Source: Chitinophagaceae bacterium (lineage in GTDB: Bacteria > Bacteroidota > Bacteroidia > Chitinophagales > Chitinophagaceae). Taken from it: a DNA stretch of 64,000 nt. Below are positions 12,628 through 24,689 of this stretch, piece after piece. The notes under the pieces are model-generated. The model did not search any database and was not told the origin of the DNA. It worked only from the letters and a program-made list of their open reading frames with translations. The translations under genes were made by a program, and so were the position numbers. The stretch's first letter is position 1. Each line of letters opens with the position of its first letter. The stretch is from assembly GCA_039811165.1 (NCBI GenBank), contig JBDHYC010000012.1, positions 19,090 through 83,089 of the forward strand, written 5' to 3'.

Positions 12628-14229
12628 ATGGATTGTAATGCTATACGAATTCCTTACCGGCAAACCGGTTTTTTCACCCGGACAGCCCTGGATTATATTG
12701 ACCAGGCGGATGCATTGAAATCTTTTTTCGTTCATCCTCCGTCTTTGCAGGGAATTCAAAAAGCAATTGAGGCAAGAAAAAGACATAAGGTGGACAGGGA
12801 AACACTGGTTCGGCACCTGAAAAGTCAATATCAATCCGTTTCTTCAGCAAAGGCAGTTCATGAAAATATAGAAGCATTACTTTCGGCTGATACTTTTACG
12901 GTCACCACTGCACATCAGCCCAATATTTTTACTGGCCCGTTATATTTTATTTATAAGATTCTGCATGCAATACGGCTGTCTGAGCATTTGAAAAAGCTAA
13001 TGCCGGAATATCGCTTTATCCCGGTTTACTATATGGGTTCCGAAGATGCTGACCTTGATGAGCTGGGACATATACACCTGGATGGACAAAAAATTGAATG
13101 GAACACCAAACAGACCGGTGCTGTGGGAAGAATGAAAATTGATAAAGAATTCATACAGATAATTTCCCGGATAGTAGGCTGTTTATCCGTCCTGCCCTTT
13201 GGTGAAGAGATTCTCTCCCTGGTAAAAAAGGCTTACAGGGAAAATGTTTCTGTCCAGGATGCGACATTTTATTTTGTTAATGAATTATTTGCTGAATACG
13301 GTTTGATTGTTCTCGTCGCAGACGATGCGTCATTAAAAAAGCCAATGACCGGGGTGTTTGAAGATGATCTCATGAATCAAAAGCCATCCCGGATCGTTGA
13401 AGGCACTGCCAAAGAACTGCAGGCAGCGGGATACAAGGTTCAGGCTCATCCCAGGGAAATCAATTTGTTTTATTTGAAAGATAATCTGAGGGAAAGAATA
13501 GTGGAGAAAAATTCACAATTCGCAATTCACAATTCACAATTGCAATTTAGTAAAGAGCAAATGTTGGAGGAGTTAGAAAAACATCCTGAACGTTTCAGCC
13601 CGAATGTGATTTTAAGAGGATTATTCCAGGAAACGATTTTACCCAATCTTGTTTTTATAGGTGGCGGTGGGGAACTGGCCTATTGGTTGCAGCTAAAAGA
13701 TCTTTTTCAGCAATACAGCGTACCCTTCCCGGTATTACTGCTCAGAAATTCGTTTTTGGTTGTTGAAAAGAAATGGCAGGACAAGATTCAGAAACTGGGT
13801 TTTACATCAGAAGATATTTTTTCAAAAGAGGAGGAACTCCTGAACCGACTTGTAAAAAGGGAGATTATAAATGATGTCGGGCTTAATGGAACTTATACCG
13901 AGACAGGGCAAATATATGATTCCGTAAAAAAGCAGGCTACAGCAATTGACAAAACATTATCTGCCCATGTTGATGCGCTGAAAACTCAGGCCTTGCACCG
14001 GCTTCATGAGCTTGAAAAAAAAATATTCCGTTCCGCAAAAAGAAAATTTACGGATCAGCAACGCATGATTGAATCTGTAAAAGGAAAATTATTTCCTTTG
14101 GATAGTTTGCAGGAACGCCAGGATAATTTTTTATCTTATTATGCCAAATGGGGGAAAGATTTTTTAAAAGAGCTGTATAAAAATTCGCTGACTACGGAAC
14201 AGGAATTTGTAGTGCTTTCCGAAAAGTGA
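12628..14229 (+). CDS. bshC: Bacillithiol biosynthesis cysteine-adding enzyme BshC
   Basis: 533 aa. The blocks HQPNIFTGPLYFIYKI, MGSEDADLDE and HPERFSPNVILRGLFQETILPN..GGGGELAYW match conserved B. subtilis BshC blocks as I recall them. Confidence 0.8.
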   Translation: MDCNAIRIPYRQTGFFTRTALDYIDQADALKSFFVHPPSLQGIQKAIEARKRHKVDRETLVRHLKSQYQSVSSAKAVHENIEALLSADTFTVTTAHQPNIFTGPLYFIYKILHAIRLSEHLKKLMPEYRFIPVYYMGSEDADLDELGHIHLDGQKIEWNTKQTGAVGRMKIDKEFIQIISRIVGCLSVLPFGEEILSLVKKAYRENVSVQDATFYFVNELFAEYGLIVLVADDASLKKPMTGVFEDDLMNQKPSRIVEGTAKELQAAGYKVQAHPREINLFYLKDNLRERIVEKNSQFAIHNSQLQFSKEQMLEELEKHPERFSPNVILRGLFQETILPNLVFIGGGGELAYWLQLKDLFQQYSVPFPVLLLRNSFLVVEKKWQDKIQKLGFTSEDIFSKEEELLNRLVKREIINDVGLNGTYTETGQIYDSVKKQATAIDKTLSAHVDALKTQALHRLHELEKKIFRSAKRKFTDQQRMIESVKGKLFPLDSLQERQDNFLSYYAKWGKDFLKELYKNSLTTEQEFVVLSEK

Positions 14230-14295
14230 TCCCGGTTGTTATAAAGTAACCTGTTTTTATTTTGTAGTTCAAAACGGTGATTTTTCAAAAAAAAT

Positions 14296-14385
14296 TTACT
14301 TTTTGTCTTGATACAAAAAGTAACAAAAAAATCAAGGCAAAACATCAGAAGTCTGGAAAATTGAGAAGACTGTTTGTTTTGCCTT
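14296..14385. repeat. Two strong hairpins in the bshC-CRISPR intergenic region
   Basis: The first has a perfect 11-bp stem, TTACTTTTTGT(14296-14306)/ACAAAAAGTAA(14313-14323). The second has an 11-bp stem, AAGGCAAAACA(14334-14344)/TGTTTTGCCTT(14375-14385), with inner AGTCT/AGACT pairing. Confidence 0.7.
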
Positions 14386-14531
14386 TGAGCAGTTCAGGTG
14401 TGGGATCGGCGCAGATATTCAATATTTTATTTTTAGAATTTTTATATTGAAAGGAGGGAATGCTGTACCTGGCCCTAAGCCTAACAAGCCGCCCTTATTT
14501 TATTATTTTTAAAATTTGACAAAAGCCCTGC

Positions 14532-14592
14532 TGTGAATTGATTTGCTTTCTCCCGAAGGCTTTCGGATTATGTGGCTTAACTCTTTAACAAT
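14532..14592 (+). repeat. Degenerate solitary CRISPR repeat (D1) with an internal hairpin insertion
   Basis: The sequence is TGTGAattgATTTGCTTTC + tcccgaaggctttcgga + TTATGTgGCTTAaCTCTTTAACAAt. Both flanks align to the 47-nt repeat. The central AAATTTTC is replaced by a CCGAA/TTCGG hairpin. Confidence 0.8.
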
Positions 14593-14625
14593 GGTAATTA
14601 AAACTTATTAATTAGTTTTACAATT

Positions 14626-14889
14626 ATGATTATTGATGCCAGAACAGTAAATTTTTTAAAAAAATTCTCAACCGAGAATGTTTATTTCGCATCCTCATTC
14701 CATGATGTATATTTTAAATGGGATATTAAAGAAAGGAAATATTACCAAAAGTTTAGGGGAATGGAAGAGACGCCTGTACAAAAAGGCAGCGATTTGCTTA
14801 TGGAGGCTATTTTGGACAGAAATGAAATTACAGAAGAGGAATACGAATCAGGTAGTAATTTAGTGTCAAGAGATAGGATTTGGCATTAA
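14626..14889 (+). CDS. Hypothetical 87-aa protein occupying the interval between two degenerate CRISPR repeats
   Basis: This ORF is in the track, is AT-rich and has an acidic C-terminal half. I recognise no family. Its stop codon (14887-14889) abuts the next repeat remnant. Confidence 0.45.
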   Translation: MIIDARTVNFLKKFSTENVYFASSFHDVYFKWDIKERKYYQKFRGMEETPVQKGSDLLMEAILDRNEITEEEYESGSNLVSRDRIWH

Positions 14890-15020
14890 TTGATAATTTG
14901 GTTTGCTTTCAAATTTTATGCTTGTCCGTCCGAAGCGATGCGAAGGCGGATAGCTTAGCTCTCATATCCCGACAGAATCGTCGGGAAGATTTGCCCGCCT
15001 GCATGACGCAGTCGGGCAGG
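14889..15020 (+). repeat. Disrupted CRISPR repeat remnants (D2) with inserted hairpin sequences
   Basis: aTTGaTAATTTGgtttGCTTTCAAATTTT-ATG (14889-14920) is followed by a 30-nt insert. Next comes TAGCTTAGCTCT (14951-14962, repeat positions 28-39), then a 58-nt insert. That insert contains the hairpins TCCCGAC/GTCGGGA (14967-14986) and GCCCGCCTGC/GCAGTCGGGC (14993-15017). Confidence 0.8.
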
Positions 15021-16746
15021 CTTTCAAATTTTCATGTAGCTTAGCTCTTTAACAACCTTTATTAATAATTTTAATAGTAAGAAAAAGTTGTGATTTGCTT
15101 TCAAATTTTCATGTAGCTTAGCTCTTTAACAACTTGGCAATCAATACGGCTGTGGCTGAAGCTGTTGTGATTTGCTTTCAAATTTTCATGTAGCTTAGCT
15201 CTTTAACAACGAATTGATCTCTCCACTCCCTTTAGGGGATGTTGTGATTTGCTTTCAAATTTTCATGTAGCTTAGCTCTTTAACAACCGGCTATTATCAA
15301 TCTATATGACATACACGGTTGTGATTTGCTTTCAAATTTTCATGTAGCTTAGCTCTTTAACAACAGAACCCTCTTTACAATGCACAGCAGTTTGTGTTGT
15401 GATTTGCTTTCAAATTTTCATGTAGCTTAGCTCTTTAACAACAATTACTGCTCCCGTTCCTTCACCGGAATGGTTGTGATTTGCTTTCAAATTTTCATGT
15501 AGCTTAGCTCTTTAACAACGCCAATAACGGCAAGGTTAATTACCCCTGCGTTGTGATTTGCTTTCAAATTTTCATGTAGCTTAGCTCTTTAACAACCTTC
15601 CTGTACCCTGCAACCCATCTACACAAGTTGTGATTTGCTTTCAAATTTTCATGTAGCTTAGCTCTTTAACAACGTCGGCTTCATCAAATGTTAGCACCAA
15701 TGGTTGTGATTTGCTTTCAAATTTTCATGTAGCTTAGCTCTTTAACAACTAATTGCAGGCTGCATGGTGCTTGGGTTGGTTGTGATTTGCTTTCAAATTT
15801 TCATGTAGCTTAGCTCTTTAACAACCTACCGGTGTCAATTAGCACTAATATATCAGTTGTGATTTGCTTTCAAATTTTCATGTAGCTTAGCTCTTTAACA
15901 ACTTATTTAATAATTGTTTTTCTTTTTTCAATGTTGTGATTTGCTTTCAAATTTTCATGTAGCTTAGCTCTTTAACAACAATAATAATCTCGGACTATTT
16001 ACTTGAGTGTTGTGATTTGCTTTCAAATTTTCATGTAGCTTAGCTCTTTAACAACTGCGTTGTTTGGGATTACGAATGGATAAAAGTTGTGATTTGCTTT
16101 CAAATTTTCATGTAGCTTAGCTCTTTAACAACTATAAAATATCTACCATCTTGAAATTGAAGTTGTGATTTGCTTTCAAATTTTCATGTAGCTTAGCTCT
16201 TTAACAACAGCGTTGACGTTAACTATCGTTAATGTATCGTTGTGATTTGCTTTCAAATTTTCATGTAGCTTAGCTCTTTAACAACCAAAATAAAACAATT
16301 ATCAAATGCAAAGGAGTTGTGATTTGCTTTCAAATTTTCATGTAGCTTAGCTCTTTAACAACTTGTAATATCCGTGAACAATCAGCTTTATGTTGTGATT
16401 TGCTTTCAAATTTTCATGTAGCTTAGCTCTTTAACAACCCACCGGAAAAAACAGGCAAGCGATAAGCAGTTGTGATTTGCTTTCAAATTTTCATGTAGCT
16501 TAGCTCTTTAACAACAGAAACAAAGAAAGCGTATGATGCAATACGGTTGTGATTTGCTTTCAAATTTTCATGTAGCTTAGCTCTTTAACAACGGAGTTGA
16601 TACCATTCCTGCAATGCTAACAGTTGTGATTTGCTTTCAAATTTTCATGTAGCTTAGCTCTTTAACAACAAAAGACCTATCAATGCTCCTATTCCTGTTG
16701 TTGTGATTTGCTTTCAAATTTTCATGTAGCTTAGCTCTTTAACAAC
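15021..16746 (+). CRISPR. CRISPR array: one 5'-truncated repeat, 22 identical 47-nt repeats and 22 spacers (type II-C, Bacteroidetes 47-nt class)
   Basis: The repeat is GTTGTGATTTGCTTTCAAATTTTCATGTAGCTTAGCTCTTTAACAAC, first at 15087-15133 and last at 16700-16746. The period is ~77 nt with unique 29-31-nt spacers. The truncated copy (repeat positions 12-47) is at 15021-15056. The strand is assigned from tracrRNA anti-repeat complementarity. Confidence 0.98.
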
Positions 16747-16804
16747 AGCTTATAGGCAAAACCTTGATAATACGGTATTTGAGCTGGGTTTTACAATCAA
16801 AAAA

Positions 16805-16829
16805 ATGGGTTTGACGACCCATTTTTTTA
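16805..16829 (+). terminator. Intrinsic terminator downstream of the last repeat
   Basis: The stem is ATGGGT(16805-16810)/ACCCAT(16817-16822), followed by T7 and preceded by an A-run, so it is potentially bidirectional. Confidence 0.65.
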
Positions 16830-16916
16830 TTCCTACCCCTTTTTCATATCCTTTCAACCAAAAAGAATCCAAGCCCCAACGGGGCAATCTGTTTATAGAA
16901 AATTGTAAATTCAAAC

Positions 16917-16939
16917 CCCGGCTCCGTAGGAGCCGCCTG
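16917..16939. repeat. REP-like hairpin upstream of the Y1 transposase gene
   Basis: CCCCGGCTCCGTAGGAGCCGCCTG, with stem GGCTCC/GGAGCC. Its flank GCCGCCTG is the inverse of the CAGGCGGC flank seen on the downstream REPs. Confidence 0.75.
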
Positions 16940-16959
16940 AATCATAAAGCTACCTGCCA

Positions 16960-17421
16960 ATGGCTAATACATTTTCACAAATCTACCTGCAATTTGTTTT
17001 TGCAGTGAAAGGGCGCCAGAATCTTATAGAAAAGAAGAATAAGGAAGAACTCCATAAATACATCACCGCCCTGGTACAAAACCGAAATGCCAAAATGCTG
17101 GCGATTCATTGTATGCCTGATCATACGCATATTTTTGTTGGGTTCAAACCCTCAGTTCTCATTTCAGATTTTATCAAAGAAATTAAAGTTGAGAGCAATG
17201 AATTTATCAACAGTAAAAAGTGGATTAAAGGCAGGTTCAGTTGGCAGGAGGGCTATGGGGTATTTTCCTATTCTCATTCACATATTGACCGGGTGGTAAA
17301 ATATGTGCTCAACCAGGAAGCCCATCACTATAAAAAGCCTTTCCGCCAGGAATATCTTGAATTACTTAAACGCTTTGAAATTCCTTTTGAAGAAAAATAT
17401 CTTTTTGATTTTTTGGATTGA
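16960..17421 (+). CDS. IS200/IS605-family Y1 HUH transposase-like protein, probable REP-associated tyrosine transposase (RAYT)
   Basis: 153 aa with HUH motif PDHTHIFVG and catalytic-Tyr helix VVKYVLNQEAHH. It is a single gene with no tnpB, flanked on both sides by GCTCC-N3-GGAGC hairpins. Confidence 0.85.
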   Translation: MANTFSQIYLQFVFAVKGRQNLIEKKNKEELHKYITALVQNRNAKMLAIHCMPDHTHIFVGFKPSVLISDFIKEIKVESNEFINSKKWIKGRFSWQEGYGVFSYSHSHIDRVVKYVLNQEAHHYKKPFRQEYLELLKRFEIPFEEKYLFDFLD

Positions 17422-17429
17422 TATGCAGG

Positions 17430-17946
17430 AAGCTCCACCGGAAACTAATCCAGCTATCTGATACAGGTTAAAAATATGGCACACCTACGTGATCGGTGTT
17501 GTATAAACAGGCGGCTCCGAAGGAGCCTTTGTCCTCTTATTTCATTTGGGCTACAAACACACAGCTCCTCCGGAGCCCGATTCAGCTATCTGTTACAGAT
17601 TATAAATACAGCGCTCCTACGGAGCGTAACGGTTTTGTCATATAAATTGCAATTGATGTACAGGCGGCTCCGATGGAGCCTTTGTCCTCTTATTTCGTCC
17701 GGGCTACAAACACGCAGCTCCTACGGAGCGTAACCCTGTAATTTGTTAACGTTTATAAACGTGATGCTCCTACTGAGCTTTGCATTTCTGTATTAAGAAG
17801 CAGATCGAAATGATTTCAATAGATGTGCAGGGGGCTCCGATGGAGCCTCGATCTCCTTATATTATCGGGGCTACAAACACGCAGCTCCTCCGGAGCCTGA
17901 TCCAGCTATCTGTTACAGTTTAAGATCACGACGCTCCTCCGGAGCA
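17430..17946. repeat. Cluster of about 10 REP hairpins (GCTCC-N3-GGAGC) arranged in three composite 70-120-bp units
   Basis: Hairpins lie at about 17432, 17513-17527, 17564-17576, 17612-17626, 17665-17680, 17717-17729, 17763-17778 (degenerate), 17833-17847, 17884-17896 and 17933-17945. The repeated linker is GGGCTACAAACAC...AGCTATCTGTTACAG. Confidence 0.9.
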
Positions 17947-17971
17947 TATCACAGCCTGGCTAAATAGTCTA

Positions 17972-18346
<375 letters not shown>

Positions 18347-18410
18347 TCACAGACCTGGTAGCTGTAACCGGCTGGCTGATTATTTTATTTTCCATATATG
18401 GTGATTCCAT

Positions 18411-19343
18411 TCATTCAAGGGTAGGGTATAAAATCTTTCTTGTTGTGCCTTCAAAACATTTTGCAAGTGATGCGGTGGTTCGCTGCACCGCATTCATCAT
18501 CGGGCTTTTTTCTCCGTTTATTTTTACATCCATTGCCGGGATCTCCAATAACATTTTTTTCATGGAGGGTGTCATTTCCAAAAATCTTCCATTATTTCGG
18601 ATGATCTGATATACTACCATATCCACATAAGGACGATAAGGTTCCATGATGTCGTCTGCTAAACAATAAGCATTGTATTGATTGCGGTGATGAATTCCGA
18701 GAGTTGGTAATAGTCCGCTTGCCACTAAGCTTCTTGCCACCAATGCTCTTAAAATTGCATAGCCATAATTCAAAAGATTATTGGGTGGCGGGCCGAAACG
18801 TTCTCTCCGGAATTCCAATTCTTCCGGAAAAATTCGTTTCCAATAATAAGCAGCGGCCTTAGCTTCATGATTTTCGCTGTCGCCGCTTTTTACATCAGTA
18901 GCATAGCGCAGAAGAATTTTGTTTTCTGTTCTTTGCCTGTTTAGCAATGCAGCCTGGTTTTCTATTTTGGAAATAATGGTTTGTTGCCATAATTGTTTTT
19001 TCAGCGGAACAGTGGCATCTATCTGCGCCTGGAATTTTTGGCTTTGAAGTGTATTACCATCAAGGCTTAGTAACATGCCTGCAGGGTGGTGGGTATTATC
19101 GCAGGTGATGACGGCGCTGTTGTTTGCTAATAGTTTTGCGAGTAATGCCTGCGTGATGGTGACCTGTTTATGATCGAGGATAAGCAGCCCAATATCTTCA
19201 ATGGGAATCGTTTTGGGTTCGGGTTTTATTTCTTCCTTTCCTTCAGGCAGGGTAACAGCAATGGCGGGAACTTCGACTACGAGTTGTTCGTTGGCGGTTT
19301 TGAGATAAGCGGGGTTACCAAAATATAGGGTTCGCTTTATCAC
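18411..19343 (-). CDS. cas1: CRISPR-associated endonuclease Cas1 (type II)
   Basis: 310 aa starting MIKRTLYFGNPAYL. Conserved GxHH (LGIHHRNQ) and acidic motifs are present. It lies adjacent to cas9 and cas2. Confidence 0.95.
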   Translation of the reverse strand: MIKRTLYFGNPAYLKTANEQLVVEVPAIAVTLPEGKEEIKPEPKTIPIEDIGLLILDHKQVTITQALLAKLLANNSAVITCDNTHHPAGMLLSLDGNTLQSQKFQAQIDATVPLKKQLWQQTIISKIENQAALLNRQRTENKILLRYATDVKSGDSENHEAKAAAYYWKRIFPEELEFRRERFGPPPNNLLNYGYAILRALVARSLVASGLLPTLGIHHRNQYNAYCLADDIMEPYRPYVDMVVYQIIRNNGRFLEMTPSMKKMLLEIPAMDVKINGEKSPMMNAVQRTTASLAKCFEGTTRKILYPTLE

Positions 19344-19451
19344 AGGATGATGGGTTTCTAAGGATAAAACGAAGAATGAGGGGATTTATTTTCTGTTATT
19401 TCCAAAGGGTTGCTTACCTTTTCATCGGCTTCTTTAAAGGAGTTAAAGACG

Positions 19452-22400
19452 TTAATTGTTTTTTGAGGGAGAAATGTTGCCGAGGCGGTCAACTTCCTTC
19501 CATTTAATTTCGCCGAGCAGAGAAATTTCAAAATCTTCATCCTCAATCAGAAAATTCCAGTTGTTACGACTTAAACCCAAGAGAGGAACAGGATTCTTAT
19601 CATTGATTACTGAGGACTCAGTTTTGTATTCTTCAATTTGCAATTTGAGCCTTTCAGCAAGATCGGAAGACGAATGTTGTTTTATAAGTTCAATCCGTTT
19701 ATCGAAATCATAAAGACGTTTTTCGAAGTCTTTATTCCTATCTGATGTATTGTTTATGTTTTCATTGGGAGTAATTTCTGGAATATCAAACTGTTTTTCG
19801 AATGGGCTTAATATCTTGCTCTTAGTTTGTTTAATAGATTTATCAATGTCCCCCTTTGCTCTCGATTCTAGATGACATTGTAGCATTATTTTGTTTCCAG
19901 TATAATGAAATTGTGTAATTCTGTATAACCTTTTTATCTGAAACTCTATTTCATTTATCTTCTCAAGTTCCGTATCATCGTTTAAAACAAAGACTTTTTG
20001 CCCCACTTTTAAAAGTTTTTTATCAGCATAATGATTGTATTCTGGGTAATACTCGCTGATAAGCCGATCTATTTCAAATTTGCTATTCTTTTTATACATC
20101 TTACCCAAATCAGTGGAAGCTATTGGTATCATTATTCGTTCTATCTTATCGTTATTAACATGTTGCAAGAATGCTGCATAAGGTAAGGAGCCGGCAGCTG
20201 AATAATAATTATTTTTGTAGTCATGTTTTGATTGATAATTGATTCGTTGTTTGACAATTTTTCCTGCGGTAGTTCTTATCCGAACGTGCCGTATTTCATT
20301 GCCTTGATGATCTTTTGGTTTCAGAATATTCTGTTGTTTTGAAATCAACTCTTGTATATCATGGTCAACAATATCATTAATGTATTTTTTTGCATCTTCT
20401 AAACTTACTCTTTCGGCAAAGAAAAATTCGTCTTTCCCGGTTTTAAATTTCCACTTTCCATCGTAAGTTCTTATTGGCTTATGTTGTTCATCCCGCTCAA
20501 CGTCTTTTAATTTAGCCAAAAATGTTTGCTTATAAAGTGTTGTTCGGATACTGTCACCTTTTGCAATTTTAGAAATTTTGCTTCCATTTTTGTCCAAAAC
20601 GTAATGCCCATTTATATCTTTTAAATAAACAAGCCTCCCTCTGCTACGAACAGTTTTATAAGTCCGTTTTAATATTTTATCTTTTTGGTAGTTTACTATC
20701 AACACCGAGTTTTCAATACTTTGTATTAATGCCTGGGAATTGAAGTTTTCGTATGGCATAACGGTAAACTGTCCTTTTTTTTGTTCCTGCCATTCATACA
20801 TAATTTTGAGCAAACGTTCCCGGTAACTAGCGTTGGTTGGTATCAAAGTTAGTACCGCAGCATCAATGGCATGGTGGGTATGCTTATTACGGTTTTTAAT
20901 TTCATCTTCTTCCTGGAAGCCATATATTTTACGAAAATCGGCAGTGACAATTCCCTTTTGCACTTTTACTCTATTGCTATATACTTTCTTTTCAAATGAT
21001 TCATTTTTGGTGGATTTGAAATATGTGCTTAAAAATTCCCGGGCATATTTTGAAATCATTTGTGTATCGGTGAGCTGTCTGCGAACCCAACTTTCTTTAA
21101 TTTCCTCGCAGGTAAAACGCTCTATTTTATCTGTCCAGTAGTCGAGGTGCATTTTGAAGTAGAGCTTGCTTTGGATGCGTTTATTTTTGTTTTCTTCGTC
21201 TTCCCCCGGTTTAGCTTTTTTATTCTCTTCATATAGTGTTTCGTAATGCTCTTTCAGTTCAATCCAGTTTTTAAGTCTTGGCTCAATGGCAGTACCCCAG
21301 CCCTCTTTATCTTTTGAGTAATTATCACATTGAGTTGGAAATTGGTTTTTCTTTTTATCACGATTATACCTGGCATAGCACACGGTTTGATTAGCCATGG
21401 TATTATCTGGTAATAAACTGCGGGGAATAGTGTGTTCAATATCAATTTCATTGGAAAATAGCTGGGTAATAGAAATCATTTTACCGGTGTACATGCACAT
21501 ACCTTTCTGCTCCATCCAAAGCTCATAGCGTTTTACCGCATCTTTTTGTTTAAGTATGTAGTCCCTTGTAGGTATCTCTTTCTCCTTTCCACTCTTTTCA
21601 TCTTTTATTTTGGTATTACCCAATATCTGTTCATTCCATAACTCAAAGTCTGCTATCCGATCATCTATGGTAATTTGAATATTTTCTTTTACTTTAAATT
21701 CTTCTAAAAACTTTCGAAAGAGGTCTCTTTTATTTTCACGATCTCGCTGATATCTCTCTATAGCAATTCGTTTGTTGTTATCATTCAATTCTCGGGCTAC
21801 TTCGATAACAATTTCAGTTTCTTCATCAATCTCGTCTTTTAATATCAATTCATTTAATAACTTCCTTAAAACGCAGAGAGCTTTATTAAACATTGGATTT
21901 TTAATACTGTCAATGAGTGGCACTGCAAGGATTTTCTTACTAGTATTTTTATCAATGATAGGAGGCTTGTATTTATTCTTCTGTTTGGAGTGGTGATATA
22001 ATAAGGTTGTATCAATGTTTACTTTCTGTTTCTTAAATTCTTTTTGAAGGATTTCATCCAGAGTAGGTGGCTGACAATAAGATCGTGTAGCATCTTCAAA
22101 AAATTGCTGGTAATGGCTTTTTACTGCATCAAAAAAAATATTTTTTTCGTCCTCGGATTTAGTATTCCATGTTTTTTCGCCAAAATGTTTGGTACAGGCA
22201 TTCTGTATATCATTCTCATCATCTTTTTGTAAACGATATGTTGTGTCTTTATAAGCAAACTTTTCACGGTTTTCTAAGCCTTTCCAGGCATCTATAAGGC
22301 TATTTGAAATGGTAGCGATAGTTTTGTCCCGGTTGTAAGCTGAATTAGCTTCTTTTATAGCAAGAAAGATATTTTCTTTTTCACTTTCCCAATTTTGACC

Positions 22401-22802
22401 AAGTAATTCAGGCATTTTTGCTAACAGTACAGCTTCATTATATAGATGACCTTTGCTTAAGAATGGGATAATTTTACTAATTGCTTTTATACTTAAATCT
22501 GAGAAGGATGAACCAATACTTTTCTTCAATTCAACGAACGGGTTATATATTTTTCCTTTTTTTGTTGTCTCATCTGGTATCATTAATTTTTGAACGGAAA
22601 AATATTTCAGGTAGGGTTCATCAAAACTGTAGAGTGCATGCCACAAATCAAGAACCGAGTATTTCTTAGCGATTATTTTAGGTGCTATTTGATGTTTAGT
22701 ATCATTTTTTGCAGCACCGCCAATTATATAATTATGTAATTGATTTAATTGCGTTTCAATTATTTCTCCAAAAATATCAATCAACCCTTTGCAAATTGGC
22801 AT
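19452..22802 (-). CDS. cas9: Cas9, C-terminal 1116-aa fragment (REC remainder, RuvC-II, HNH, RuvC-III, PI domain)
   Basis: It carries RuvC-II IVIEVAREL, HNH IDIEHTIPRS...N and RuvC-III HHAIDAAV. This frame is actually open upstream to nt 22916, through the A12 tract. Confidence 0.95.
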   Translation of the reverse strand: MPICKGLIDIFGEIIETQLNQLHNYIIGGAAKNDTKHQIAPKIIAKKYSVLDLWHALYSFDEPYLKYFSVQKLMIPDETTKKGKIYNPFVELKKSIGSSFSDLSIKAISKIIPFLSKGHLYNEAVLLAKMPELLGQNWESEKENIFLAIKEANSAYNRDKTIATISNSLIDAWKGLENREKFAYKDTTYRLQKDDENDIQNACTKHFGEKTWNTKSEDEKNIFFDAVKSHYQQFFEDATRSYCQPPTLDEILQKEFKKQKVNIDTTLLYHHSKQKNKYKPPIIDKNTSKKILAVPLIDSIKNPMFNKALCVLRKLLNELILKDEIDEETEIVIEVARELNDNNKRIAIERYQRDRENKRDLFRKFLEEFKVKENIQITIDDRIADFELWNEQILGNTKIKDEKSGKEKEIPTRDYILKQKDAVKRYELWMEQKGMCMYTGKMISITQLFSNEIDIEHTIPRSLLPDNTMANQTVCYARYNRDKKKNQFPTQCDNYSKDKEGWGTAIEPRLKNWIELKEHYETLYEENKKAKPGEDEENKNKRIQSKLYFKMHLDYWTDKIERFTCEEIKESWVRRQLTDTQMISKYAREFLSTYFKSTKNESFEKKVYSNRVKVQKGIVTADFRKIYGFQEEDEIKNRNKHTHHAIDAAVLTLIPTNASYRERLLKIMYEWQEQKKGQFTVMPYENFNSQALIQSIENSVLIVNYQKDKILKRTYKTVRSRGRLVYLKDINGHYVLDKNGSKISKIAKGDSIRTTLYKQTFLAKLKDVERDEQHKPIRTYDGKWKFKTGKDEFFFAERVSLEDAKKYINDIVDHDIQELISKQQNILKPKDHQGNEIRHVRIRTTAGKIVKQRINYQSKHDYKNNYYSAAGSLPYAAFLQHVNNDKIERIMIPIASTDLGKMYKKNSKFEIDRLISEYYPEYNHYADKKLLKVGQKVFVLNDDTELEKINEIEFQIKRLYRITQFHYTGNKIMLQCHLESRAKGDIDKSIKQTKSKILSPFEKQFDIPEITPNENINNTSDRNKDFEKRLYDFDKRIELIKQHSSSDLAERLKLQIEEYKTESSVINDKNPVPLLGLSRNNWNFLIEDEDFEISLLGEIKWKEVDRLGNISPSKNN

Positions 22803-22888
22803 AGTAGCTGCTGAGTGATCGTCTTTATAGTTGTATTGGTGTTCATTTTTTAGCTGTTTGTCAAGAAACTTTTTAATATCAGCAAACT

Positions 22889-23896
22889 TTACATTTTTTT
22901 TTTTTGAAGGAAGAAATTAGTATAGAGTTTATCCTTAATTTCCTTTGGCAGAAATTCCATGCTACCTGGAGCATTATTGTATTTAATTGTATTGATAAAC
23001 TGCCAGGCTCTGGAGATTTCAAAAAGTGGATGAGATACCGGGCACCTGGGGCGATCTTTTTCTAAAGTACACCTACCAATATTTCCTTTTTGACTTCTTA
23101 AGGGGCGTTGCCAGATAATTGATTTCCAGAATTGTTGCACTAAAGAATCTTGATAAGTACCCATTGCATTACGGCTAATGTCAAATTCTTGGGCTTTGCA
23201 GAGCTTTTCCAGTTCAGCCCTGTATTCTTTGCGAAGCGGATATTGATTTCTTGCCCTTTTCCCCTTGTCTAAAAATTCTTTTTTCAGCGCTTCAGCAATG
23301 GTTCTATTATTTTGTAGTGCTTGTGCAAAACCGTCTGCTTCTCTTCTTTCCAATTGCTTTTTTGTTTCGATATCTTTTTTGGCTTCGTCAATATTGAGTT
23401 CATCTGTATCAGATTCTCCAATATTTTTGTAACCTCTCCTTTGCACTAAATGATAAAGTGCCCGTCCCAATTCTTGCTTACTTACTTTGTTATCTAAAGC
23501 GAAGACTCTTAATTCGTATGGATTTTTATAATTTCTGCCATTTTGATAAGTAAAATCGCATGCCAGCCATTTTTGAAATAACCCGTTTTCGGGAAATTTT
23601 TGTAACTGACCTTTTTTATAGTTGCTCCAAATTTCAAGCTCATTCTTTTGTAATGGAGTATAATCATTTTTAATAAGAACTTTGAGCAGCTCCCATTTTC
23701 TGTATTTACGTGCCTGTATTAATCTCCTTTTGGATCGAGCTTCTCTTCTTTCTTTAGCGGGGGAAGTATATCCTCCAGTACCTTTTACCATACCAGACTC
23801 AAAGGTTATCACGCCTGTTTTGATACTGTTATCTTCATTTCTTAGTGCCCATCCGATTGATGAACTTCCCAAGTCTAGACCCAAAATTTTGTTCAT
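22889..23896 (-). CDS. cas9: Cas9, N-terminal 335-aa fragment (RuvC-I, Arg-rich bridge helix, start of REC)
   Basis: It starts MNKILGLDLGSSSIGWAL (RuvC-I Asp) and carries the bridge helix RREARSKRRLIQARKYRK. It ends ...FFLQKKKM*, immediately after the A12 run (22894-22905). Confidence 0.95.
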   Translation of the reverse strand: MNKILGLDLGSSSIGWALRNEDNSIKTGVITFESGMVKGTGGYTSPAKERREARSKRRLIQARKYRKWELLKVLIKNDYTPLQKNELEIWSNYKKGQLQKFPENGLFQKWLACDFTYQNGRNYKNPYELRVFALDNKVSKQELGRALYHLVQRRGYKNIGESDTDELNIDEAKKDIETKKQLERREADGFAQALQNNRTIAEALKKEFLDKGKRARNQYPLRKEYRAELEKLCKAQEFDISRNAMGTYQDSLVQQFWKSIIWQRPLRSQKGNIGRCTLEKDRPRCPVSHPLFEISRAWQFINTIKYNNAPGSMEFLPKEIKDKLYTNFFLQKKKM

Positions 23897-23931
23897 AATA
23901 TTTTAAGTTTTAAAATTCTTCATATATTTAT

Positions 23932-24022
23932 ACCGAAAGACAAATCACAACAAGGCTATAAGCCGCAGATTTACTTTCTGAGCGACTGCTTGAATAAAAT
24001 CGGTAGTCGCTAATTTTTTTTT
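23932..24022 (+). ncRNA. tracrRNA: tracrRNA (predicted), divergent from cas9
   Basis: The anti-repeat GAAAGaCAAATCACAAC (23934-23950) is complementary to repeat positions 1-16 with one bulged A. It is followed directly by the nexus-like AAGGCTATAAGCCG (GGCT/AGCC hairpin, 23952-23965). The terminator stem is AGCGACTGC(23981-23989)/GGTAGTCGCT(24002-24011) plus T9. The 5' end is approximate. Confidence 0.85.
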
Positions 24023-24176
24023 GAATACTATCTCTTTGCAGAACCATTCAGCTTTTAACAGGGAGCAGGAAGGATAATAAATATAGGCAATTTAAAGTTT
24101 TTGCTAAAGAAAAAAAATGATTATTCTTTGCAATGGCAATGCTTTTATAGAGGAATTTGTTGGTGAAAGATATGAT

Positions 24177-24689
24177 TCAATCAAATTGATTCTCCCAACC
24201 TTCTTTCTTTAGCTTCTCCACTTTTTCTATTACCTCGTTGTTAAGAGAGTTTTTATAAATAGCAATCTTTTGGGAGATGGTTTCATCGGAAGCACCGAGT
24301 ATTTCAGCAGCCAGTATTCCTGCATTTTTTGCTGCATTGAGTGCAACGGTGGCAACAGGTACACCATTGGGCATTTGGAGAATGGAAAGCACCGAATCCC
24401 AACCGTCAATGGAATTGGAAGATTTAATGGGAACACCAATTACCGGCAAAGTGGTTACCGATGCTACCATACCGGGAAGATGGGCAGCACCACCGGCTCC
24501 TGCAATGATTACTTTCAATCCTCTTTCTTTTGCTTTTTGGGCATAGTCCACCATCCGGAGCGGAGTACGATGAGCAGATACCACCGTTACTTCATTAGGT
24601 ATATCAAATTGTTTTAAAATATCGGCAGCGGCTTGCATAATATTGAGATCGCTGTCGCTGCCCATGATGATGCCGACTAAAGGATTCAT
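24177..24689 (-). CDS. purE: N5-carboxyaminoimidazole ribonucleotide mutase
   Basis: 170 aa starting [11 protein letters not shown], with the SAHRTP motif and GGAAHLPG. Confidence 0.95.

What the first reader, a model, noticed from the sequence alone, without database searches (positions are those of the whole stretch)
16747..17971. A RAYT-like Y1 HUH transposase and a REP hairpin cluster are inserted between the CRISPR array and cas2
The 1.2-kb gap between the last repeat (16746) and the cas2 stop (17972) holds a 153-aa IS200/IS605-type Y1 transposase with HUH and catalytic-Tyr motifs. One GGCTCC-GTA-GGAGCC hairpin lies upstream of it, with an inverted flank. About 10 GCTCC-N3-GGAGC hairpins lie downstream, organised in three composite units. 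This architecture matches REP/RAYT (REPIN) systems. Two points make it notable. First, it occupies the array-proximal position next to the adaptation genes, where the leader of this array end would be expected, so it may alter spacer acquisition or expression. Second, IS200/IS605 elements are the evolutionary cradle of Cas9 (via IscB), so a Y1 transposase physically nested in a cas9 locus deserves attention even if coincidental. The hairpin cluster also lies between convergent transcription units (pre-crRNA/RAYT on + and cas9-cas1-cas2 on -), so it could act as a bidirectional RNA-stabilising or terminating block.
Basis: partly seen in the sequence, partly recalled or inferred. Interest (0 to 1): 0.7.

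Follow-up and report, generated by a model that had tools for sequence, protein, structure and literature searches.

The report
Sedentary Y1 gene with private hairpins
A single-copy, IS200-related tyrosine nuclease gene, bracketed by its own short DNA hairpins, sits as a passenger between a type II-C CRISPR array's intact leader and cas2; it looks ordinary for the CRISPR system, but it shows that a poorly known class of these nucleases always carries matching hairpins.

Summary
The 153-aa Y1 HUH ORF (16960-17421) is real. There are 11 strong copies of a 31-nt unit (TATAAACAGGnn + GCTCC-N3-GGAGC): 2 inverted upstream and 9 direct downstream, plus one decayed copy. None occurs elsewhere in the 64 kb.

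The architecture is RAYT/REP-like:
- The gene is seen in a single context.
- The flanking hairpins are inverted relative to each other.
- Orphan hairpin clusters occur in other genomes.
- The family is nearly absent from plasmids and absent from phages.

However, the protein is not a RAYT-clade member. It belongs to the IS200-like "subclass 1.2" of Quentin et al. 2018, which that paper reported as having no REPs. All 8 lineages found by protein search carry these hairpins with the same polarity. Where it could be counted, hairpin copy number is low, not REP-like abundance.

The block is a roughly 1.1-kb insertion between the array's leader and the cas2 stop. The leader, including its poly-A/poly-T hairpin, is intact. 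Related loci show the empty site, and 0 of 80 Cas1-relative loci carry the block. Three CRISPR-linked lineages plus one cas-less remnant share one origin.

It is most likely a passenger in a convergent-transcription gap. The Cas9/IscB connection is coincidental.

The parts
15020..16746 (+). Type II-C CRISPR array. There is one 5'-truncated repeat (15020-15056) followed by 22 identical 47-nt repeats with a period of about 77 nt. It is transcribed on the + strand, towards the Y1 gene and cas2.
   Evidence: Orientation comes from the tracrRNA anti-repeat.
16747..16835 (+). Acquisition leader core of the array (the cas2-proximal flank). It includes a 12-bp perfect inverted repeat, A7TGGGT-N6-ACCCAT7, at 16799-16828, which looks like a terminator in both directions. 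It is intact and is not part of the insertion.
   Evidence: pair I9. It is collinear and conserved in L008, L012, L136 and L223, and present in the empty-site loci L139, L137 and L208. The literature says II-C arrays are transcribed towards the leader end and that leaders carry poly(A)/poly(T) regions.
16869..16899 (-). Upstream REP-like unit B', inverted. Its hairpin, GCCCC-AAC-GGGGC (16873-16885), differs from the usual stem on both sides and still pairs. Its flank is CTGTTTATAGA.
   Evidence: (31.0 bits). The same GCCCC/GGGGC variant is present in all four CRISPR-linked loci.
16917..16947 (-). Upstream REP-like unit A', inverted. Its hairpin, GGCTCC-GTA-GGAGCC (16920-16934), lies 25 nt before the ATG.
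   Evidence: pairs I2/I3; 29.6 bits.
16960..17421 (+). Y1 HUH tyrosine nuclease/transposase gene, 153 aa. It is IS200-like class 1, subclass 1.2 of Quentin et al. 2018.
17418..17449 (+). Decayed REP unit at the start of a partial B-C composite unit (17426-17489), directly after the stop codon.
   Evidence: (family D2), (9.9 bits).
17500..17629 (+). Composite unit 1. It holds three direct REP units at 17500-17530, 17550-17580 and 17599-17629.
   Evidence: 36.7, 31.0 and 33.7 bits.
17653..17782 (+). Composite unit 2. It holds three direct REP units at 17653-17683, 17703-17733 and 17752-17782; the last has one stem mismatch.
   Evidence: 34.6, 35.7 and 30.6 bits.
17820..17949 (+). Composite unit 3. 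It holds three direct REP units at 17820-17850, 17870-17900 and 17919-17949 and ends 22 nt before the cas2 stop codon.
   Evidence: 28.1, 36.0 and 31.2 bits.
17972..18346 (-). cas2, convergent with the Y1 gene.
   Evidence: PF09827, E 1.5e-17. It is 90% identical to Cas2 of L008.
18411..19343 (-). cas1.
   Evidence: PF01867. It is 86% identical to Cas1 of L008.
19452..23896 (-). cas9, split into 335-aa and 1116-aa ORFs by a frameshift inside an A12 run at about 22893-22904.
   Evidence: The same split is seen in four independent assemblies.
23915..24022 (+). Putative tracrRNA. It comprises the anti-repeat GAAAGaCAAATCACAAC (23935-23951), an AAGGCTATAAGCCG nexus-like element, and the terminator AGCGACT...AGTCGCT followed by a T9 run. 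It fixes the crRNA strand as +.
   Evidence: Read directly from the sequence.

Best explanation
The 1.2-kb gap has two parts.

(a) The first ~85 nt (16747-~16835) is the array's own acquisition leader. It includes a poly-A/poly-T hairpin that serves the converging crRNA and cas transcripts. It is intact.

(b) The rest (~16870-17965) is an old insertion of about 1.1 kb. It consists of a single-copy Y1 HUH gene of the IS200-like 'subclass 1.2' and its cognate 31-nt units (TATAAACAGGnn followed by a 5-6-bp GCTCC-N3-GGAGC hairpin). Two units are inverted upstream and ten are direct downstream.

The module works like a RAYT/REP pair. By inference from IS608, ISDra2 and E. coli TnpAREP, the enzyme binds the hairpin when the DNA is single-stranded. 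It then cuts and rejoins at a site set by the conserved 5' flank. This would account for two observations:
- expansion and contraction of the hairpin cluster in place (2 units in L008, L012 and L223, 10 in the window, and 5 identical tandem units in Mucilaginibacter);
- occasional seeding of gene-less hairpin doublets elsewhere.

The gene itself no longer multiplies. It is inherited along with its neighbours.

In this locus it is a passenger in a neutral gap between convergent transcription units. As a by-product, the hairpins followed by UGUUUAU probably act as weak terminators or 3'-end protectors for cas2 mRNA, and insulate the Y1 gene from read-through.

Shown: the anatomy, family assignment, conserved polarity, single context, empty sites and the intact leader. 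Inferred: catalysis on these hairpins, the origin of the tandem expansion, and the effects on RNA.
For: Family.
- Pfam Y1_Tnp match.
- The subclass-1.2 signature DHxH / WQ / Y---Q--HH is present.
- The predicted beta-alpha-beta-beta-alpha-beta-alpha fold matches 30 PDB chains at E<=0.001, all Y1 HUH transposases.

Cognate hairpins.
- All 8 lineages found by protein search (window, P0003, P0091, P0102, P0040/P0018, P0110, P0087, P0038) have model hits within about 300 nt of the gene (up to ~420 nt upstream in L231; far-end inverted copies up to ~700 nt downstream in L005).
- The polarity is always the same: upstream copies on the strand opposite the gene, downstream copies on the gene strand.
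- The outermost stem pair covaries (GC 11, CG 3, AU 2), and one unit has a change on both sides of an inner pair.

Sedentary, housekeeping-like behaviour.
- The exact protein was read on 23 contigs from many samples, always in the same context.
- Other homologues each have a single context.
- Only 2 of 72,556 plasmid records match, both ~600-kb replicons predicted non-mobilizable.
- No phage record matches, and only 1 viral contig carries the DNA motif.
- Differences between orthologues fall mostly at third codon positions.

Insertion rather than a CRISPR part.
- In the empty-site loci L139, L137 and L208 the order is last repeat, then leader with hairpin, then the cas2 stop within about 110-130 nt.
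- None of the 80 Cas1-relative loci (about 560 kb) has the hairpin, the Y1 motif or a model hit.
- The block from last repeat through leader, B' and A' to the ATG is collinear and 79% identical in the window, L008 and L012, and also in L223.

Hairpins away from the gene.
- Gene-less clusters occur in L020, L030 and L075.
- Three separate loci in one Flavobacteriales MAG carry clusters; two of them (L019, L103) share a ~90-nt module.

Terminator-like geometry. The scan finds 10 sites against 1.4 expected.
Against: - No biochemistry exists for subclass 1.2.
- The cleavage site is unknown.
- The source genome is not available, so its genome-wide REP and Y1 counts are unknown.
- About 110 of the 120 hairpin stretches have no subclass-1.2 gene within the 8-kb block, so hairpins can exist without a nearby enzyme. 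Whether those genomes encode one elsewhere was not tested.
- The tandem expansion could result from replication slippage alone.
- Presence of the Y1 block does not follow Cas1 similarity. Cas1 of L223 is 81% identical to that of empty-site L137 but only 76% to the window's. The history therefore involves loss or recombination, not simple vertical descent.
- The structure model is of only moderate confidence (pLDDT 65.6).
Confidence: 0.65

Rival explanations
1. It is an ordinary, still-mobile IS200-type insertion sequence that landed in the CRISPR locus. The flanking hairpins are its left and right ends, and the gene-less hairpin doublets elsewhere are its MITE derivatives.
For: - The NCBIfam IS200/IS605 equivalog model passes its cut-off (70.6 against 55).
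- The closest structures are IS200/IS605 TnpA proteins.
- The minimal form of the block in L008 and L223 is about 0.65-0.7 kb, the size of IS200.
- The gene occurs in at least six unrelated neighbourhoods.
- The block's presence is patchy relative to Cas1 similarity.
Against: - Each homologue examined has only one genomic context, across dozens of contigs.
- Quentin et al. report low copy number and no IS properties for this subclass.
- The flanking units are inverted relative to each other, whereas IS608 and ISDra2 ends are read on one strand (established knowledge).
- The insertion is old. It is shared by lineages whose Cas1 proteins are 76-86% identical, with collinear junctions and a shared variant hairpin.
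- The family is almost absent from plasmids and phages.
Confidence: 0.12
2. The hairpins are mainly transcription terminators or RNA 3'-end protectors of the host, and have nothing to do with Y1 catalysis. The gene simply tends to sit in terminator-rich gaps.
For: - On the strand entering the Y1 gene, each hairpin is followed by a T-rich tail ((C)CTGTTTAT).
- The scan finds 10 terminator-like sites against 1.4 expected.
- The units sit between convergent genes here and in L228, L230 and L231.
- Many hairpin clusters lack a nearby Y1 gene.
Against: - All 8 Y1 lineages found by protein search carry this particular hairpin and flank with a fixed polarity.
- None of the 80 related CRISPR loci has it.
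- None occurs elsewhere in the 64-kb window, which contains many gene ends.
- The stem sequence, not just the ability to pair, is nearly invariant across phyla. That fits protein recognition better than a generic terminator.
- Ten copies in tandem are more than termination needs.
Confidence: 0.1
3. The Y1/hairpin block is functionally tied to the CRISPR adaptation module. For example, it might process single-stranded DNA for Cas1-Cas2, or recombine the cas1-cas2-leader-array cassette between different cas9 backbones.
For: - Three independent-looking II-C loci plus one cas-less remnant have the block at exactly the leader/cas2 junction.
- Between the window and L008, Cas1, Cas2, Y1 and the leader are 79-90% identical, while Cas9 is only 26-30% identical.
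- L012 keeps a decayed repeat, the leader and Y1 after losing the cas genes.
Against: - None of the 80 Cas1-relative loci has the block.
- Four of the eight lineages found by protein search, and all seven found through the hairpin, are not next to CRISPR.
- The four CRISPR-linked blocks share a variant hairpin, which points to one origin rather than repeated recruitment.
- Effector and adaptation modules are known to shuffle in CRISPR loci without any help.
- No hairpin lies at the cas9/cas1 breakpoint.
Confidence: 0.05

Closest known systems
TnpA_Y1 subclass 1.2 (Quentin et al. 2018, BMC Genomics 19:475; PMC6006769)
   Same: - The motif signature is the same: DH[IV]H-type HUH (here DHTH), WQ, and Y---Q--HH (here YVLNQEAHH).
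- The length is about 148-153 aa, with a conserved C-terminal tail.
- Copy number is low.
- The host is Bacteroidota.
- There is no IS behaviour.
   Different: [quoted passage not shown]
- Here, every lineage examined carries a conserved 31-nt hairpin unit on one or both sides of the gene.
- Close homologues with the same hairpins also occur in MAGs labelled Zhuqueibacter and Acidimicrobiia.
RAYT / TnpAREP with REP-BIME/REPIN elements (Nunvar 2010; Bertels & Rainey 2011; Ton-Hoang 2012; Bertels 2017, PMC5581495)
   Same: - It is a single-copy Y1 HUH gene flanked by short extragenic palindromes in inverted orientation.
- The hairpins also occur as gene-less inverted doublets and clusters elsewhere.
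- Its distribution is housekeeping-like: rare on plasmids and syntenic with its neighbours.
   Different: - It belongs to a different protein clade: class 1 IS200-like rather than class 2. It fails the NCBIfam RAYT cut-off.
- The hairpin is a perfect 5-6-bp stem with a 3-nt loop and a TATAAACAGG flank, rather than a longer imperfect palindrome with a GTAG or CGTC head.
- Copy number appears low: 0 in the other 62.8 kb of the window, and 1-3 stretches per genome in a truncated scan. RAYT systems have tens to hundreds.
IS200 / IS608 / ISDra2 (IS200/IS605 family, TnpA subclass 1.1)
   Same: - These are the closest proteins by sequence and fold.
- The minimal unit is about 0.7 kb.
- Subterminal hairpins are present. 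The IS200 left-end hairpin is a known terminator against impinging transcription (established knowledge), which matches the inward-facing terminator-like geometry here.
   Different: - No multicopy behaviour is seen.
- The flanking hairpins are mutually inverted and repeated in tandem.
- The Y motif is Y---Q--HH rather than Y[IV]ENQ.
- There is no tnpB, iscB or omega-RNA partner.
Type II-C CRISPR leader (Flavobacterium columnare, Hoikkala 2021, PMC8092290; Neisseria meningitidis, PMC12477760)
   Same: - The array is transcribed towards the cas-proximal variable/leader end.
- The leader carries poly(A)/poly(T) tracts within 100 bp of the junction.
- The degenerate, truncated repeat is at the far end.
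   Different: The leader-to-cas2 distance is 1.2 kb, against about 110-130 nt in related loci, because of the inserted block.

Membership tests
TnpA_Y1 subclass 1.2 (Quentin et al. 2018) | HUH motif DH[IV]H, WQ motif, and Y motif Y---Q--HH | tested here: met
   PDH55TH57, W95Q96 and Y115VLNQ119EAH122H123 are present. H55, H57, W95, Q96, Y115, Q119, H122 and H123 are invariant in 9 homologues. The paper's motifs are given. The middle HUH residue is T rather than I/V.
TnpA_Y1 subclass 1.2 (Quentin et al. 2018) | Low copy number per genome and no IS behaviour | tested here: met
   The exact protein was read on 23 contigs, all in the same context. Each of 7 other homologues has one context. The source genome itself is not available.
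TnpA_Y1 subclass 1.2 (Quentin et al. 2018) | No associated REP or terminal secondary structures, as stated in the paper's table | tested here: not met
   All 8 lineages found by protein search have covariance-model hairpin hits flanking the gene. This contradicts a descriptive statement in the paper, not the definition of the clade.
RAYT / TnpAREP (class 2 Y1) | Sequence membership in the RAYT clade | tested here: not met
   NCBIfam NF047646 REP_Tyr_transpos scores 31.5 bits against a cut-off of 80. 4ER8 is not found by sequence at E<=1 and ranks 30th by fold. The Y motif lacks the class-2 ...NP ending.
RAYT / TnpAREP (class 2 Y1) | Single-copy gene flanked by REPs in inverted orientation | tested here: met
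   Upstream units are on the - strand and downstream units on the + strand, here and in the homologous loci that have units on both sides. The gene has a single context.
RAYT / TnpAREP (class 2 Y1) | Flanking repeat is abundant across the replicon (tens to hundreds of copies; Bertels 2017 criterion 4) | tested here: inconclusive
   There are 0 copies in the other 62.8 kb of the window and 0 beyond about 700 nt from the gene in roughly 75 kb of homologous loci. The whole source genome was not available.
RAYT / TnpAREP (class 2 Y1) | Rare on plasmids; housekeeping-like inheritance | tested here: met
   2 of 72,556 plasmid records match, both ~600-kb replicons predicted non-mobilizable. No phage record matches. 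Synteny with cas1-cas2 and the leader is kept at 76-90% amino-acid identity.
IS200/IS605 insertion sequence | TnpA Y1 transposase of the IS200 type | tested here: met
   NCBIfam NF033573 scores 70.6 bits against a cut-off of 55. The top PDB matches are ISDra2, IS200 and IS608 TnpA proteins.
IS200/IS605 insertion sequence | Multiple (near-)identical copies with defined ends in a genome | tested here: not met
   Only one context is seen per protein across many samples. There is one Y1-linked stretch in the complete Ilyomonas chromosome, within the limits of a truncated scan.
IS200/IS605 insertion sequence | Left- and right-end hairpins recognised on the same strand (not inverted), plus a specific target tetra- or pentanucleotide | tested here: not met
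   The flanking units are reverse complements of each other, including the asymmetric flank. The target site is not determinable: comparison with the empty site gives only an approximate junction.
REP / REPIN elements | Short extragenic palindromes present at several unlinked loci in a genome, often as inverted doublets | tested here: met
   A Flavobacteriales MAG has three loci; two of them (L019, L103) share a ~90-nt module. Gene-less inverted doublets occur in L020, L075 and L107. This was not shown for the source genome.
Type II-C CRISPR-Cas locus component | Present in related loci of the same subtype | tested here: not met
   None of the 80 Cas1-relative loci (58-79% identity) has the hairpin, the Y1 motif or a model hit. 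Empty sites are seen in L139, L137 and L208.

The most novel reading that the evidence does not exclude
The Y1/hairpin block is not a mere passenger. It is physically and functionally coupled to the adaptation half of the locus. It would travel with cas1-cas2, the leader and the array, and promote their single-strand recombination onto different cas9 backbones, or feed or regulate spacer integration at the adjacent leader. This would explain two things: Cas1, Cas2, the leader and Y1 are 79-90% identical between two loci whose Cas9 proteins are only 26-30% identical, and the block survives with a decayed repeat and leader where the cas genes are gone.

A more probable reading, at roughly 0.3, also stays open. 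Subclass 1.2 may be a domesticated hairpin-processing enzyme with a host function, given a hairpin that is nearly invariant across phyla.
Probability: 0.05. Interest if true: 0.8.

Novelty: new variant of a known kind. Interest (0 to 1): 0.4.

Why it matters
For CRISPR biology the result is mostly reassuring. The insertion leaves the II-C leader, array, tracrRNA, cas1 and cas2 intact, and it is absent from related loci. It is therefore not a new CRISPR component.

The wider value concerns the Y1 nuclease family. A large and very conserved family (over 6,000 clusters, about 80% identical across genera) was previously described as lacking REPs and IS features. Here it turns out to carry a stereotyped, nearly invariant 31-nt hairpin unit with fixed polarity. 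The same unit also occurs as gene-less clusters in several phyla.

This gives a second, independent example of a REP/RAYT-like partnership, one that arose inside the IS200-like class. It also offers a simple, well-defined substrate for testing what sedentary Y1 enzymes do.

Tried and rejected
- The Python machine was lost. As a result there are no trees, dN/dS values or per-genome counts; the comparisons were done with pairwise and alignment tools instead.
- Rfam (E<=1) found nothing relevant in 14000-24500.
- Tandem Repeats Finder did not report the composite units; the repeat finder did.
- Folding the whole 550-nt cluster as DNA was uninformative (z = -2.4, with long-range pairings).
- The strict codon-pattern searches for Y1 genes in loci miss diverged genes. 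They also gave one chance hit inside a 403-aa ORF in L081.
- I first considered that the array might be read on the - strand, because the repeat begins GTTGT and ends ACAAC on both strands. This was rejected once the tracrRNA anti-repeat was found.
- I considered that the conserved sequence after the last repeat might be a tracrRNA or part of the Y1 element. This was rejected because it is present in loci without Y1.
It was redone with database homologues only, which gave a shallow alignment and a pLDDT of 65.6.
- L136 carries a different ~550-nt insert at the same site. It has no ORF of 100 aa or more and was not resolved.
Full report
OBSERVATION

The gap between the last CRISPR repeat (ending at 16746) and the cas2 stop codon (17972-17974) contains a 153-aa ORF at 16960-17421 on the + strand.
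- It matches Pfam Y1_Tnp (E 5e-24).
- GCTCC-N3-GGAGC occurs nine times exactly in the 64-kb window, all between 16921 and 17945, against zero expected.
- Relaxed matching adds a one-mismatch copy at 17766, a decayed copy at 17432, and a copy at 16873 whose stem is GCCCC/GGGGC, changed on both sides.
- The downstream hairpins form three composite units of about 133 nt, spaced 153 and 167 nt apart and 74-77% alike. A partial unit sits directly after the stop codon.
- The two upstream hairpins are reverse-complement copies of the first two members of a composite unit, including the asymmetric flank.

THE REPEATED UNIT

I aligned 30 copies from the window and seven other loci. The consensus is nnTATAAACAGGnn-GCTCC-TAC-GGAGC-n. 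The five inner stem pairs are essentially invariant. The sixth, outer pair covaries (GC 11, CG 3, AU 2).

I built a covariance model of this 31-nt unit and ran it on the whole window with filters off. It finds 11 hits of 28-37 bits, all in 16869-17949. Nothing outside that region exceeds 12 bits. In this window the unit is therefore strictly local to the gene.

THE PROTEIN

- NCBIfam places it in the IS200/IS605 model (70.6 bits against a cut-off of 55). It does not reach the RAYT model (31.5 bits against a cut-off of 80).
- The closest solved structures by sequence are the ISDra2, Sulfolobus IS200 and IS608 transposases. E. coli TnpAREP is not found.
- A moderate-confidence model (pLDDT 65.6) has the beta-alpha-beta-beta-alpha-beta-alpha HUH fold. 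All 30 PDB hits at E<=0.001 are Y1 transposases, and TnpAREP ranks 30th.
- The motifs PDHTH, WQ and YVLNQEAHH match the 'subclass 1.2' that Quentin et al. (PMC6006769) separated from true IS200 transposases. [quoted passage not shown]
- H55, H57, W95, Q96, Y115, Q119, H122 and H123 are invariant in nine homologues that are 56-89% identical.
- The family is very large and tightly conserved: 6,381 clusters at E<=1e-5, with the best 120 being 78-97% identical.
- Differences between orthologues fall mainly at third codon positions.

COPY NUMBER AND MOBILITY

- The exact protein was read on 23 contigs from many sequencing runs, always in this same CRISPR context.
- Seven other homologues each have a single context.
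- Only 2 of 72,556 plasmid records match, both ~600-kb replicons predicted non-mobilizable. No phage record matches, and a single IMG/VR contig carries the DNA motif.

These are the housekeeping-like traits that Bertels et al. used to separate RAYTs from insertion sequences.

THE HAIRPINS BELONG TO THE GENE

All eight lineages found by protein search have covariance-model hits beside the gene. These are the window, P0003, P0091, P0102, P0040/P0018, P0110, P0087 and P0038.
- Most hits lie within about 300 nt of the gene. They reach ~420 nt upstream in L231, and far-end inverted copies reach ~700 nt downstream in L005.
- Upstream copies are always on the strand opposite the gene and downstream copies on the gene strand.
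- The number of downstream units varies: 2 in L008, L012 and L223, 10 in the window, and five identical 71-nt tandem units in Mucilaginibacter. The cluster therefore expands in place.

This contradicts the 'REP: no' entry for subclass 1.2 and appears to be undescribed.

ARE THE HAIRPINS DISPERSED?

I scanned 185,579 species-representative genomes for TAYAAACA-N4-GCTCC-N3-GGAGC.
- The hits come from Bacteroidota, Acidobacteriota, Verrucomicrobiota, Poribacteria, Planctomycetota and other phyla.
- Only about 6-9 of the stretches contain a subclass-1.2 gene.
- Examples checked by hand (L020, L030, L075) are intergenic clusters or inverted doublets with no gene.
- One Flavobacteriales MAG has three separate loci; two of them (L019, L103) share a ~90-nt module.
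- Complete chromosomes in the sample show only 1-2 stretches.
- No unit lies beyond about 700 nt from the gene in roughly 75 kb of Y1-bearing loci.

REP-like dispersal therefore exists but at low copy number. For the source genome it could not be measured.

RELATION TO THE CRISPR LOCUS

A tracrRNA-like gene lies upstream of cas9 at about 23915-24022 on the + strand. It has an anti-repeat complementary to the + strand repeat, an AAGGCTATAAGCCG nexus-like element, and a terminator. This fixes crRNA transcription on the + strand.

The far (left) repeat is truncated at its 5' end. In type II-C systems, transcription starts inside the repeats and runs towards the variable, leader end.

Its first ~85 nt includes the perfect A7TGGGT-N6-ACCCAT7 inverted repeat at 16799-16828.
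- This stretch is conserved and collinear in L008, L012, L136 and L223.
- It is also present in loci without the Y1 gene. There the cas2 stop follows the last repeat within about 110-130 nt (L139, L137, L208).

The Y1/hairpin block (~16870-17965) is thus an insertion between an intact leader and cas2. None of 80 loci with Cas1 proteins 58-79% identical to the window's contains the hairpin, the Y1 motif or a model hit.

HISTORY OF THE BLOCK

Three CRISPR-linked lineages (window, L008, L223) and one cas-less remnant share the block. The remnant, L012, has a decayed repeat, the leader and Y1.
- All four have the same junction layout and the same GCCCC/GGGGC variant of the distal upstream hairpin. 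That variant is absent from non-CRISPR Y1 loci. This points to one insertion event.
- Between the window and L008, Cas1 is 86%, Cas2 90% and Y1 89% identical, but Cas9 is only 26-30% identical. The effector module was exchanged while the adaptation module, leader and Y1 stayed together.
- Cas1 of L223 is closer to that of empty-site L137 (81%) than to the window's (76%). Loss or recombination must also have occurred.

MECHANISM (INFERRED)

By analogy with IS608, ISDra2 and TnpAREP, the enzyme should bind the hairpin in single-stranded DNA and cut and rejoin at a site specified by the conserved 5' flank. That would account for the local tandem amplification and the rare gene-less doublets.

Independently of this, on the strand that enters the Y1 gene each hairpin is followed by (C)CTGTTTAT. 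This gives 10 terminator-like sites against 1.4 expected. The units probably insulate the gene, as the IS200 left-end hairpin does (established knowledge). Here they would also end or protect the cas2 transcript.

Nothing suggests a role in CRISPR function. The IS200-IscB-Cas9 ancestry is irrelevant here, because no IscB, TnpB or omega-RNA accompanies the gene.

VERDICT

The RAYT/REP reading is right about how the module is built and probably how it works. It is wrong about family membership and is unsupported on REP abundance. The CRISPR leader is not disrupted.

The item is a new variant of a known kind: a RAYT-like partnership built on the IS200-like subclass 1.2, sitting as a passenger in a II-C locus.

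Noticed in passing
window 22889-22910 (cas9, - strand): cas9 is split into 335-aa and 1116-aa ORFs by a frameshift inside an A12 homopolymer. One extra A would restore a Cas9 of about 1,480 aa. The same split is seen in four independent metagenome assemblies. It could be phase variation, transcriptional slippage or a pseudogene.
   Followed up: partly
window 23915-24022 (+): A putative tracrRNA lies divergent from cas9. It has the anti-repeat GAAAGaCAAATCACAAC, an AAGGCTATAAGCCG nexus-like element, and the terminator AGCGACT...AGTCGCT followed by T9.
   Followed up: partly
window 14572-15019: Upstream of the truncated first repeat there is a degenerate repeat interrupted by a 30-nt GC-rich insert (about 14897-14965). 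Two GC-rich hairpins follow (CCCGAC...GTCGGG and GCCCGCCTGC...GCAGTCGGGC). Another repeat fragment lies at 14572-14592, on the far side of an 87-aa Tis1_ImmP-like ORF (14626-14889).
   Followed up: no
window cas9 compared with L008:5010-9758: Two loci with nearly the same cas1, cas2, leader and Y1 (79-90% identical) have Cas9 proteins only 26-30% identical. L008 also has an extra DUF2204-like gene between cas9 and cas1. This is effector-module exchange.
   Followed up: partly
L012:9745-10003 (Chitinophagaceae MAG GCA_037975565.1): A decayed single CRISPR repeat and the leader lie upstream of the Y1 gene, with no cas genes; an esterase gene follows instead. bshC lies about 9 kb upstream, as in the window. 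This looks like the remnant of a lost CRISPR-Cas locus.
   Followed up: partly
L136:6760-7300: A related II-C locus (Cas1 75% identical) has the same leader and terminator as the window. Between them and cas2 it has a different ~550-nt insert. The insert begins with a CCCGG...CCGGG hairpin followed by CCTGTTT and contains no ORF of 100 aa or more. It may be a decayed or different element at the same site.
   Followed up: no
L005:10511-10825 (Mucilaginibacter sp. OK268): Five perfectly identical 71-nt tandem hairpin units lie downstream of the Y1 gene, followed by inverted copies at the far end. This implies very recent local amplification.
   Followed up: no
L030:4560-6500 (Segetibacter sp. 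3557_3): More than 2 kb with no long ORF is made of tandem repeats of about 370 nt. They combine the GCTCC hairpin units with other GC-rich hairpins (CGCCTTCGGCG). No Y1 gene lies within the 8-kb block.
   Followed up: no
L001-L004 compared with window 15020-16746: In the Logan assemblies the 23-repeat array is collapsed to the single truncated repeat joined to the leader. This is presumably an assembly artefact, so spacer turnover between samples could not be assessed.
   Followed up: no
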